Below are positions 61,233 to 61,933 of a stretch of DNA of 64,000 bases, piece after piece. Origin of the DNA: Dictyostelium discoideum. Its lineage: Eukaryota. Below the pieces are notes generated by a model, which did not search any database, was not told the DNA's origin, and worked only from the letters and a program-made list of their open reading frames with translations. Each line of letters opens with the position of its first letter. Within the stretch, counting starts at the first letter, position 1. A program made the position numbers and the translations under genes. Location: positions 32,001 through 96,000 of the forward strand of contig CM000152.2 of NCBI GenBank assembly GCA_000004695.1, written 5' to 3'.

Positions 61233-61933
61233 TTATTGTATAATACATTTTGAAGTATTCGATGTTGTTGTTGTTGGATCATTTAAAACACCATCTTTAC
61301 AATATAAATGACAACGTACTACCTGTTTAAATATTTCATTAACACCCTGATTACAAAGTGAAGAACATTCTAAATACATAGTTGCTTTAATTTCTTTTGA
61401 TAATGCTAAACCTTGTTTATATGAAATTGGTGGCATTTGATTATTTTCTTTTAATAAATTTATAGTATTTTCATCTTCACGTAAATCACATTTTGTTCCT
61501 AATAAAATGATTGGTGTATGAATTGATGGTGCATATTGTCTAATTTCAGGTATCCATTTTTTTGAAACATTTTCAAATGATGTTGGTGAATCAATTGAAA
61601 AACATAATATAATCACATTAGTATTTGGATAGGTTGATGGACGAGTATTATCAAATTCTGCCAATGCTGATGAATCCCAAAATCCAACATGACATACTTG
61701 TTTATTATATTCTATATCTAATGAAGTTGCATCAACATGTGATGGTACATAACCTGTTGGAAATGAACCTGTTGAATATGTCATCATCATTGTAGTTTTT
61801 CCAGTTTTACTATCACCTAATACTAATAACTTTATATATGATCTTATATAAATATTACATTTTAAAATTACTATATAATTAGTAAATTTTAAATGATAAA
61901 CTAATAAAAATAATAATAATATTACTTTTGCAT
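61233..61933 (-). CDS. atypical Rho-family small GTPase (Rac-like fold, Rnd-like substitutions, CAAX box CIIQ), 205 aa, 2 exons: 61933..61926, 61842..61233
   Basis: Exon 1 ATGCAAAA + GTAATA donor. Exon 2 (..tatataag|) completes MQK [129 protein letters not shown]. G1 is GDSKTGKT, where Rac has GDGAVGKT. Switch II is [10 protein letters not shown], where Rac has WDTAGQEDYD. Confidence 0.75.

What the first reader, a model, noticed from the sequence alone, without database searches (positions are those of the whole stretch)
61233..61933. Naturally GTPase-deficient, Rnd-like member of the Rac/Rho family
The fold and C-terminus are clearly Rho family (..[41 protein letters not shown].., CAAX CIIQ). 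But it carries G12S and A13K in the P-loop (GDSKTGKT). Switch II is [10 protein letters not shown], which gives G60A and Q61L equivalents. Switch I is also altered ([10 protein letters not shown]). Q61L and G12 substitutions are the classic activating, hydrolysis-dead changes. Rnd/RhoE and RhoH proteins carry the same kind of natural substitutions and act as constitutively GTP-bound regulators. None of the characterised Dictyostelium Rac proteins I can recall have this combination.
Basis: partly seen in the sequence, partly recalled or inferred. Interest (0 to 1): 0.55.

Follow-up and report, generated by a model that had tools for sequence, protein, structure and literature searches.

The report
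Dictyostelium racI, an atypical Rac GTPase
The flagged gene is racI, a Rho-family GTPase of Dictyostelium discoideum that was named and cloned long ago. Its unusual catalytic residues are real and conserved and probably make it unable to hydrolyse GTP, but it resembles a broken or "open-state" switch more than a true Rnd-type protein.

Summary
A two-exon gene on the minus strand (61933..61233, with an 83-nt intron) encodes a 205-aa Rho-family protein. It has P-loop GDSKTGKT, switch I [10 protein letters not shown], switch II [10 protein letters not shown] and CAAX CIIQ. It is not an unknown Rac: it matches D. discoideum RacI (UniProt Q9GPR2, XP_642047.1) exactly.

Orthologues occur only in D. 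discoideum strains, D. citrinum and D. dimigraforme. All keep G12S/C, A13K, A59S, Q61L and the CAAX box. dN/dS is about 0.1-0.25 between close relatives, so this is a constrained gene and not a pseudogene.

Loss of canonical GTP hydrolysis is a sound inference but remains untested. "Rnd-like" holds only by analogy:
- RacI is nearer Rac (44% identity) than Rnd3 (37%).
- Rnd1 and Rnd3 keep Thr35 and Gly60, whereas D. discoideum RacI has T35S and G60A.
- In H-Ras, T35S and G60A favour the inactive, effector-impaired "state 1".
- F37, Y40, L67 and L70 are also changed.

Published data fit this reading. RacI binds two RhoGEFs, and its S14V form did not bind the WASP GBD.

My best reading is an expression-controlled, farnesylated Rac derivative that cannot hydrolyse GTP and has non-canonical partners. 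The gene is already known and interest is low.

The parts
61926..61933 (-). racI exon 1 (ATGCAAAA: Met-Gln plus 2 bases of codon 3)
   Evidence: The joined CDS equals XP_642047.1/Q9GPR2 exactly.
61843..61925 (-). Intron, 83 nt, GT..AG, phase 2
   Evidence: An intron sits at the same position (83-240 nt long) in all seven orthologous copies.
61233..61842 (-). racI exon 2, including the TAA stop at 61233-61235
   Evidence: tblastn of the protein finds only this place in the window.
61794..61817 (-). P-loop GDSKTGKT (aa 12-19). In Rac1 numbering: G12S, A13K, V14T, with K16 and T17 intact.
   Evidence: It reads GD[SC]K[TI]GKT in all 8 clade sequences. The published RacI S14V primers match this DNA.
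61722..61751 (-). Switch I [10 protein letters not shown] (aa 34-43). Y32 is kept. Changes are T35S, V36H, F37V, N39A and Y40T.
   Evidence: T35S occurs only in D. discoideum and D. citrinum, while D. dimigraforme keeps Thr. Y40T/I occurs in the whole clade.
61650..61679 (-). Switch II [10 protein letters not shown] (aa 58-67). D57 is kept. Changes are T58S, A59S, G60A, Q61L, E62A, D63E and Y64F.
   Evidence: Q61L and A59S occur in all 8 sequences. G60A occurs in 7 of 8, and D. dimigraforme copy B has Gly.
61626..61649 (-). Switch II helix NTRPSTYP (aa 68-75). R66N, L67T, L70S and S71T alter the hydrophobic patch.
   Evidence: D. dimigraforme copies keep the near-canonical RLRPLSYP / KLRPLSYV, so these changes are specific to D. 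discoideum and D. citrinum.
61485..61496 (-). G4 motif TKCD (aa 119-122), guanine specificity, intact
61437..61478 (-). Rho insert EDENTINLLKENNQ (aa 125-138)
   Evidence: It aligns to the Rac1 insert with a 1-residue gap. The AF2 model has a helix at aa 127-135.
61356..61367 (-). G5 motif CSSL (aa 162-165). It corresponds to Rac1 C157-S158-A159-L160, with A159S.
   Evidence: Position 164 is Ser or Ala among the orthologues.
61236..61247 (-). CAAX box CIIQ (aa 202-205), predicted to be a farnesylation signal
   Evidence: It reads CIIQ or CIMQ in all 8 orthologous copies when the genomic DNA is read through. The farnesyl prediction follows the general CAAX rule (X = Q/S/M/A gives an FTase substrate), which is established knowledge and was not tested here.

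Best explanation
This is racI, a known and expressed D. discoideum gene. It encodes a small Rac-derived GTPase confined to the D. discoideum / D. citrinum / D. dimigraforme lineage.

Shown here:
- Its identity as racI.
- The Rho fold, including the Rho insert.
- Intact nucleotide-binding residues (K16, T17, F28, D57, TKxD, S158).
- A conserved CAAX box.
- Purifying selection on the coding sequence.
- Clade-wide G12S/C, A13K, A59S and Q61L.

Inferred:
- Without Gln61 there is no residue to position the attacking water, and a side chain at position 12 obstructs a GAP arginine finger. RacI therefore probably binds guanine nucleotide but cannot hydrolyse GTP by the canonical intrinsic or RhoGAP-stimulated route. 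It would not be an ordinary GEF/GAP-cycled switch.
- In the D. discoideum/D. citrinum branch both gamma-phosphate sensors changed as well (T35S, G60A). So did effector-loop residues F37 and Y40 and the switch II hydrophobic patch (L67, L70). By analogy with H-Ras T35S and G60A, GTP-bound RacI would then favour the open "state 1". That state binds classical CRIB-type effectors poorly and resembles the GEF-engaged form.
- Its output is then most likely set by abundance (mRNA peaks in early development) and by farnesyl-dependent membrane targeting. It would act through clade-specific partners that recognise its conserved non-canonical switch surface, and possibly by occupying RhoGEFs such as GxcC and GxcDD.
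For: - Identity: exact match to Q9GPR2 / XP_642047.1.
- Family: Pfam Ras E=2.6e-34. Rac1 is the best solved relative at E=1.3e-51. The AF2 model matches Rac1/2/3 at TMt up to 0.96.
- Orthologues share upstream synteny (Mito_carr, TMEM128, TM2, then racI) and the intron position.
- dN/dS is 0.10-0.38 among D. discoideum-group copies and 0.17-0.23 against D. citrinum.
- The non-canonical regions are among the best conserved in D. discoideum plus D. citrinum: P-loop and helix 1 15/18 invariant, switch I 15/16, switch II 17/20.
- Q61L, A59S, A13K and S/C12 are present in all 8 sequences.
- Rnd1 and Rnd3 carry analogous changes at positions 12, 13, 59 and 61 and are accepted as GTPase-deficient (PMC2565660).
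- H-Ras T35S and G60A predominantly adopt state 1, with drastically impaired GTPase and impaired effector affinity (PMC4867591).
- GFP-RacI was pulled down by the GxcDD DH domain, and GST-RacI was among the strongest binders of GxcC. Both experiments were done in EDTA (PMC1914345; PMC3675359).
- RacI S14V was not among the Racs that bound the WASP GBD or Fbp17 in yeast two-hybrid (PMC10072221).
- RacI is expressed throughout the life cycle with a peak in early development (PMC8305917).
Against: - I found no nucleotide-binding, GTPase or localisation data for RacI. Every mechanistic step rests on analogy with Ras, Rac and Rnd mutants.
- T35S is conservative because it keeps the hydroxyl, and Ras results may not transfer to a Rac scaffold.
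- D. dimigraforme orthologues keep Thr35 (both copies) and Gly60 (copy B). The state-1 part of the argument therefore applies only to the D. discoideum/D. citrinum branch.
- GEF pull-downs in EDTA also caught ordinary Racs (Rac1a, RacC, RacE), so they do not show special GEF trapping.
- A negative two-hybrid result is weak evidence.
- The invariant Lys at P-loop position 13 could support a non-canonical catalytic route.
Confidence: 0.62

Rival explanations
1. RacI is a Rnd/RhoH-type protein: permanently GTP-bound, in the canonical active conformation, signalling constitutively to effectors and controlled only by expression, localisation or degradation.
For: - G12S, A13K, A59S and Q61L parallel Rnd3 (GDSQCGKT / WDTSGSPYYD) and Rnd1.
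- The CAAX box with X=Q predicts farnesylation, as for Rnd proteins (general rule).
- The presumed ancestral state, seen in D. dimigraforme copy B, has Thr35 and Gly60 intact together with S12, K13, S59 and L61. That is truly Rnd-like.
- Expression is developmentally modulated.
Against: - D. discoideum RacI has T35S and G60A, while Rnd1 and Rnd3 keep both residues. In H-Ras each change alone shifts the GTP form to the inactive state 1.
- F37V, Y40T, L67T and L70S remove residues used by classical Rac effectors.
- RacI S14V did not bind the WASP GBD.
- RacI is phylogenetically Rac-derived and not Rnd.
- It lacks the terminal extensions of Rnd proteins. This last point is from my own knowledge.
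Confidence: 0.17
2. RacI is a decaying duplicate, or a pseudo-GTPase that no longer binds nucleotide. It would be a young, lineage-specific Rac copy under relaxed constraint, with little or no function.
For: - No orthologue exists in D. purpureum (PMC3188802).
- An exhaustive search finds no cluster representative above 47% identity outside the clade.
- dN/dS rises to 0.36-0.56 against D. dimigraforme and to 0.74 between its two copies.
- No phenotype or function has been reported.
Against: - The reading frame, the intron and the CAAX box are intact in all 8 copies.
- dN/dS is well below 1 between close relatives.
- All residues that contact nucleotide or Mg are kept: K16, T17, F28, D57, TKxD and S158.
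- The altered switch regions are among the most conserved segments.
- The mRNA is expressed, and stable GFP- and GST-fusion proteins have been made.
Confidence: 0.08
3. RacI still cycles, using a non-canonical hydrolysis mechanism. One option is that the invariant P-loop Lys15 (Ras position 13) acts in cis like the arginine finger of GBPs. Another is that a dedicated GAP supplies the missing catalytic residue in trans, as RapGAP does for Rap.
For: - Lys at position 13 is invariant in the clade.
- It occupies the same P-loop register as GBP1/2 R48 (GLYRTGKS against GDSKTGKT). R48 is the cis catalytic finger of GBPs.
- K13 recurs in 7 of 125 related Rho-like domains, always together with a non-Gly residue at position 12.
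Against: - I know of no precedent for a cis lysine finger within the Rho family.
- Rnd proteins have Gln at the same position and are inactive.
- GBP catalysis also needs dimerisation and other elements that are absent here.
- No candidate GAP is known.
Confidence: 0.1

Closest known systems
D. discoideum RacI (racI; UniProt Q9GPR2, XP_642047.1, EAL68121.1)
   Same: Identical over all 205 residues. The published RacI S14V mutagenesis primers match the window DNA.
   Different: Nothing. This is the same gene. What the literature I could read lacks is any comment on its catalytic residues, or any biochemistry.
Human Rac1/Rac2/Rac3 (for example PDB 1mh1, 1ds6, 2ic5), especially Rac1 Q61L (1i4t, 1e96)
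   Same: They are the closest solved relatives: 44-45% identity, E=1.3e-51, TMt up to 0.96. RacI shares the Rho insert, W56, TKxD and a CAAX box. Leu61 is the residue of the standard GTPase-dead Rac1 mutant.
   Different: RacI also has G12S, A13K, T35S, G60A, F37V, Y40T, L67T and L70S. Its CAAX ends in Q, which predicts farnesyl by the general rule rather than geranylgeranyl. It has no polybasic tail.
Rnd3/RhoE and Rnd1 (PDB 1m7b, 2cls), GTPase-deficient atypical Rho proteins
   Same: Non-Gly at position 12 (Ser in Rnd3). A long polar residue at 13 (Gln against Lys). A59S. Non-Gln at 61 (Ser against Leu). A farnesyl-type CAAX is shared according to my own knowledge.
   Different: Rnd proteins keep Thr35, Gly60, F37, Y40 and the LSYP patch. 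Identity to RacI is only 37%. Rnd proteins are a metazoan branch on the Rho side with terminal extensions (my own knowledge), while RacI is an amoebozoan Rac offshoot. The resemblance is convergent.
H-Ras T35S and G60A mutants (state-1 or dominant-negative type)
   Same: RacI carries both equivalent substitutions naturally. These mutants predominantly adopt state 1, with low GTPase and impaired effector affinity (PMC4867591). Ras G60A is described in Ford et al. 2005 as a dominant-negative form. I saw only that paper's title, cited.
   Different: Those are engineered single mutants of Ras. RacI combines them with Q61L and G12S in a Rac scaffold, and nothing has been measured.
RhoH
   Same: It is GTPase-deficient because residues crucial for hydrolysis are substituted, and it is controlled by expression and modification (PMC2565660).
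   Different: It is a vertebrate haematopoietic protein. Its exact residues (GDSAVGKT / DTAGN) are from my memory and were not checked here. As far as I recall it keeps Thr35 and Gly60.
Other D. discoideum Racs with non-Gly at position 12 (RacH M13, RacJ D18, RacM Y14)
   Same: They show that natural position-12 substitutions are common in this family. Roughly a fifth to a quarter of the 125 Rho-like domains nearest to RacI lack Gly12 or Gln61.
   Different: I could not retrieve their switch II sequences. In the survey, Ala at position 60 occurred only in RacI.

Membership tests
Rho family of small GTPases | Ras-like G domain with G1-G5 motifs | tested here: met
   Pfam Ras E=2.6e-34 over aa 7-179. 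GxxxxGKT, D57, TKxD and CS[SA]L are present.
Rho family of small GTPases | Rho insert helix between beta5 and alpha4 | tested here: met
   aa 125-138 align to the Rac1 insert. The AF2 model has a helix at 127-135. The best structural matches are all Rac or Rho.
Rho family of small GTPases | C-terminal CAAX prenylation box | tested here: met
   CIIQ at aa 202-205, conserved as CIIQ or CIMQ in 8 of 8 orthologous copies. Actual prenylation was not tested.
D. discoideum racI gene | Sequence identity to the reference protein | tested here: met
   Exact-sequence look-up returns Q9GPR2, XP_642047.1 and EAL68121.1, 'Rho-related protein racI'.
Rac subfamily in the strict sense | Canonical switch I, switch II and effector residues (T35, F37, Y40, DTAGQE, L67, L70) | tested here: not met
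   All of these residues are substituted. Rac proteins are nevertheless the nearest relatives.
Rnd subfamily | Phylogenetic membership, meaning it is closest to Rnd or Rho proteins | tested here: not met
   37% identity and 130 bits to Rnd3, against 44% and 176 bits to a Rac1-like protein. No Rnd protein appears among the 60 best PDB sequence hits.
Rnd subfamily | Substitutions at positions 12, 59 and 61 that abolish hydrolysis | tested here: met
   RacI has S12, S59 and L61. Rnd3 has S12, S59 and S61, and Rnd1 has V12, S59 and S61. This is an analogy at the sequence level only.
Rnd subfamily | Intact gamma-phosphate sensors (Thr35, Gly60) that give a canonical active GTP conformation | tested here: not met
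   Rnd1 and Rnd3 have VPTVFENY and DTSG. D. discoideum RacI has VPSHVDAT and DSSA.
Atypical, GTPase-deficient Rho proteins (a functional class) | No measurable GTP hydrolysis, and constitutively GTP-bound in cells | not testable with these tools
   This needs recombinant protein assays. No such data appear in the papers I could read.
State-1-type or dominant-negative-type GTPases (a functional analogy) | An open switch conformation in the GTP form, low effector affinity and high GEF affinity | not testable with these tools
   It is inferred only from the T35S and G60A equivalents and from GEF pull-downs. AF2 does not model the nucleotide state.

The most novel reading that the evidence does not exclude
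RacI may not be hydrolysis-dead. The invariant Lys at P-loop position 13 always accompanies a non-Gly residue at position 12, both in RacI and in several other protist Rho-like proteins. It could act as a cis catalytic finger, as Arg48 does in the GLYRTGKS P-loop of GBPs. That would give a Rho-family GTPase a GAP-independent, possibly dimerisation-dependent, hydrolysis mechanism that needs no Gln61.

A less radical variant is that RacI is a natural state-1-locked Rac that works as an endogenous GEF trap during early development.
Probability: 0.08. Interest if true: 0.6.

Novelty: already known. Interest (0 to 1): 0.22.

Why it matters
The gene itself changes nothing, because racI has been named, cloned and included in Rac panels for over twenty years.

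The modest value lies in pointing out that RacI has never been characterised biochemically. Its sequence also predicts something more specific than "constitutively active". It naturally combines two hydrolysis-blocking changes (G12S, Q61L) with two changes that break the switch (T35S, G60A).

If that prediction is right, three things follow:
- The RacI S14V "constitutively active" construct used in screens is uninformative.
- Negative effector screens are to be expected.
- RacI would be a natural example of how a GTPase evolves after it loses hydrolysis. The order would be catalytic residues first (the D. dimigraforme-like state), followed by the gamma-phosphate sensors and effector surface (the D. 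discoideum/D. citrinum state).

Tried and rejected
1. A corrected gene model restoring DTAGQE. Rejected: switch II is inside the long exon, the model equals RefSeq and UniProt, and all orthologues share it.

2. Pseudogene or annotation artefact. Rejected: the ORFs are intact, dN/dS is below 1 and the CAAX box is conserved. The longer models in new strain assemblies (241, 223 and 351 aa) are artefacts. They use the GT inside the CAAX Cys codon as a splice donor, while the genomic CIIQ and stop codon are intact.

3. A second rac gene in the window. None was found.

4. A profile search seeded with RacI plus canonical Racs. It was swamped by metazoan Rac1 and gave nothing on dictyostelid paralogues, so one capped search was wasted.

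5. Retrieving the other 19 D. discoideum Rac sequences for a family-wide table. This was not possible with these tools. I got only the position-12 residues, from the primer table of PMC10072221.

6. Reading the primary racI papers. Rivero et al. 2001 (NAR 29:1068, PMC29714) and a RacG paper (PMC1595345) were requested and are not held. I did not try Okuwa 2001, Vlahou & Rivero 2006 or Rivero & Xiong 2016. I therefore cannot say whether the atypical residues were already discussed in any of these. I suspect the 2001 alignment noted them, but that is unverified memory.

7. The order of the G60A change. It is ambiguous, because copy B of D. dimigraforme has Gly while copy A has Ala, and the two copies group together.

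Full report
**1. What is in the sequence.**
The window has 22% G+C, typical of Dictyostelium. On the minus strand an ATG at 61933 opens an 8-base exon (61933..61926). An 83-nt GT..AG intron follows (61925..61843), then a 610-base exon that ends with TAA at 61235..61233. The spliced CDS encodes 205 aa.
- GDSKTGKT, aa 12-19
- [10 protein letters not shown], aa 34-43
- [10 protein letters not shown], aa 58-67
- [14 protein letters not shown]
- CIIQ at the C-terminus

The protein matches Pfam Ras at E=2.6e-34 and human Rac1 at E=1.3e-51 over residues 6-182. An AlphaFold2 model (pLDDT 84, pTM 0.83) contains the Rho insert helix (aa 127-135).

**2. What it is.**
An exact-sequence look-up returns "Rho-related protein racI", UniProt Q9GPR2, XP_642047.1 and EAL68121.1, from D. 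discoideum AX4. The mutagenesis primers published for "RacI S14V" match this DNA exactly (PMC10072221). No other rac gene lies in the window.

**3. The substitutions in Rac1 numbering (alignment).**
- P-loop: G12S, A13K, V14T.
- Switch I: T35S, V36H, F37V, N39A, Y40T.
- Switch II: T58S, A59S, G60A, Q61L, E62A, D63E, Y64F, then R66N, L67T, L70S, S71T.
- G5: A159S.

The residues that hold nucleotide and Mg2+ are kept: K16, T17, F28, Y32, D57, T115-K116-x-D118 and S158. The two top PDB hits are Rac1 Q61L mutants (1i4t, 1e96), which outrank wild type because they share Leu61.

**4. Relatives and selection.**
The word-indexed search finds close relatives only in other D. discoideum and D. cf. discoideum strains, in D. 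citrinum (86%), and as a tandem pair in D. dimigraforme (74% and 69%).

The exhaustive HMMER search of 1.84 billion cluster representatives finds one representative above 50% identity, which is D. dimigraforme copy B. Everything else is an ordinary Rac-like protein at 47% identity or less. D. purpureum is reported to have no racI orthologue (PMC3188802).

The loci share upstream synteny (mitochondrial carrier, TMEM128, TM2, then racI) and the same intron position. I rebuilt all eight coding sequences. Every one has an intact frame and ends in CIIQ or CIMQ.

Nei-Gojobori dN/dS values are:
- 0.10-0.38 among D. discoideum-group copies
- 0.17-0.23 against D. citrinum
- 0.36-0.56 against D. dimigraforme
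- 0.74 between the two D. dimigraforme copies

The gene evolves fast for a Rac but is constrained. The non-canonical P-loop and helix 1 (15/18 positions invariant), switch I (15/16) and switch II (17/20) are among its best-conserved parts in D. discoideum plus D. citrinum. This argues against a decaying pseudogene.

**5. Which changes are old and which are recent.**
S/C12, K13, S59, L61 and Y40T/I are present in all eight sequences, so they go back to the clade's ancestor. Thr35 is retained in both D. dimigraforme copies, and Ser35 occurs only in D. discoideum and D. citrinum. Gly60 is retained in D. dimigraforme copy B (WDQSGLEEYD) and is Ala elsewhere. The switch II helix is near-canonical in D. 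dimigraforme (RLRPLSYP / KLRPLSYV) but reads NTRPSTYP or NIRPSTYP in D. discoideum and D. citrinum.

The likely order is that the catalytic residues were lost first, giving a truly Rnd-like state. The gamma-phosphate sensors and the switch II hydrophobic patch changed later. The timing of G60A is ambiguous, because the two D. dimigraforme copies group together at the nucleotide level.

**6. Comparison with Rnd.**
I verified the Rnd3 and Rnd1 sequences against PDB entries 1m7b and 2cls. Rnd3 has GDSQCGKT, VPTVFENY and WDTSGSPYYD. Rnd1 has GDVQCGKT and the same switch regions. RacI therefore shares the kind of changes at positions 12, 13, 59 and 61. Rnd1, Rnd3, RhoH and probably the RhoBTB proteins are accepted as GTPase-deficient atypical Rho proteins (PMC2565660). 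That supports the inference that RacI cannot hydrolyse GTP canonically.

However, Rnd proteins keep Thr35, Gly60, F37, Y40 and the LSYP patch, and D. discoideum RacI does not. RacI is also closer to Rac (44% identity, 176 bits) than to Rnd3 (37%, 130 bits). It works partly like an Rnd protein but is not a member of that subfamily, so the likeness is convergent.

**7. Why G60A and T35S matter.**
H-Ras T35S, G60A and Y32F predominantly adopt "state 1" of the GTP-bound form. State 1 is the inactive conformation, with drastically impaired effector affinity and intrinsic GTPase (PMC4867591). Ford et al. 2005, cited in that paper, ties G60A to a dominant-negative effect, though I saw only its title. 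RacI carries both equivalents, plus Q61L and G12S.

The most economical prediction is a nucleotide-binding protein that neither hydrolyses GTP nor makes the spring-loaded transition. It would have a clade-specific switch surface instead of a CRIB-binding one.

Published fragments are consistent with this but weak:
- RacI S14V was not among the Racs that bound the WASP GBD or Fbp17 in yeast two-hybrid.
- GFP-RacI was pulled down by the GxcDD DH domain.
- GST-RacI was among the best binders of GxcC.

Both pull-downs were done in EDTA, and ordinary Racs bound too.

RacI mRNA is present throughout the life cycle and peaks in early development. The 2021 review states that very little is known about RacI, and it does not discuss RacI's catalytic residues.

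**8. How unusual it is.**
In D. discoideum, RacH (Met), RacJ (Asp) and RacM (Tyr) also lack Gly12. I parsed 125 Rho-like domains from the nearest representatives. Of these, 31 lack Gly12 and 34 lack Gln61, although a few rows are regex mis-registrations. Such substitutions are therefore common in divergent Rho proteins. Ala at position 60 occurred only in RacI, and Ser35 occurred in five domains. The four-way combination looks specific to RacI, but the class it belongs to is not new.

**9. A speculative alternative.**
Lys at P-loop position 13 is invariant in the clade. In the survey it occurs in 7 of 125 domains, always together with a non-Gly residue at position 12. It sits in the same register as Arg48 of GBP1/2 (GLYRTGKS), which is those proteins' cis arginine finger (PMC11846989). 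A cis-acting Lys, or a GAP that supplies the missing catalytic residue, cannot be excluded. I rate this at about 0.1.

**10. Verdict.**
"GTPase-deficient" is a reasonable, still untested inference. "Rnd-like constitutively active" is only partly apt, because the D. discoideum protein has also lost the gamma-phosphate sensors that Rnd proteins keep.

I could not read the primary papers. Rivero 2001 was requested and is not held, and I did not try Okuwa 2001 or Vlahou & Rivero 2006. I therefore cannot rule out that the atypical residues were already noted there. Novelty: already known. Interest: low, at about 0.2.

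Noticed in passing
L004 3001-6133, L005 3001-4379, L006 3001-4296; corresponds to window 61233-61247 and 60490-60600 (-): The racI gene models in three new D. discoideum / D. cf. discoideum assemblies (KAM9989016.1 at 351 aa, KAM9952584.1 at 241 aa, KAM9954614.1 at 223 aa) lose the CAAX box. They splice from the GT inside the Cys codon (AAA TGT ATT) to downstream ORFs. Read straight through, all three genomes encode ...SKCIIQ followed by a stop. 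These extended models are therefore annotation artefacts.
   Followed up: yes
L002 6001-6692 and 7195-7906 (D. dimigraforme): racI is tandemly duplicated in D. dimigraforme. The C-terminal halves are 94% identical at the nucleotide level, while the N-terminal halves (P-loop to switch II) are 86% identical, with dN/dS 0.74. Copy B keeps Gly60 (WDQSGLEEYD) and has a very divergent beta2-beta3 region. This suggests either partial gene conversion or accelerated change of the switch region after duplication.
   Followed up: partly
Alignment A2; proteins P0266, P0269, P0136, P0137, P0148: A P-loop of the form GD[SED]K[VTA]GKT recurs in several unnamed Rho-like proteins, mostly with a non-Gln residue at position 61. 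It has Lys at Ras position 13 and always a non-Gly residue at position 12. Their organisms are not known from this library.
   Followed up: no
window 62169-62299 and 62323-62453: An imperfect direct repeat of about 131 nt (80% identity, 154-nt spacing) lies in the A/T-rich intergenic region 240-520 nt upstream of the racI start codon.
   Followed up: no
window 59596-59820 (-), with small ORFs at 60490-60600 (-) and 60641-60736 (-): A histone-fold ORF (Pfam Histone E=1.1e-9, H3/CENP-like C-terminal half) lies downstream of racI on the same strand. In other strains a 242-285-aa Histone-domain gene is annotated directly after racI. The small ORFs between the two genes are what the faulty racI models absorb, and their status is unclear.
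   Followed up: partly
window 56368-59113 (+): A multi-exon gene for a Syf1/XAB2-type pre-mRNA splicing factor (Pfam HAT_Syf1_CNRKL1_C, E=3.4e-115) converges on the histone-like gene. It has a poly-Gln and acidic C-terminal tail.
   Followed up: no
window 63329-63592 (+): An ORF encodes six tandem PQQPYGAP repeats in a G+C-rich island (36-40% against 22% for the window). It has no Pfam match. The opposite strand shows a mirror-image repetitive ORF.
   Followed up: no
L001 6912-11366 compared with L005 4580-5403: Downstream synteny differs between species. In D. citrinum a ComC-like LRR gene follows racI, whereas in D. discoideum strains a histone-domain gene and then syf1 follow. Upstream synteny (Mito_carr, TMEM128, TM2) is conserved.
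   Followed up: no
L003 3001-3849 (D. cf. discoideum, P0005): This strain's racI has S14C and a Gly-to-Ala change just before TKCD (LLATKCDL). Its intron has expanded to 240 nt through a (TA)n run.
   Followed up: no
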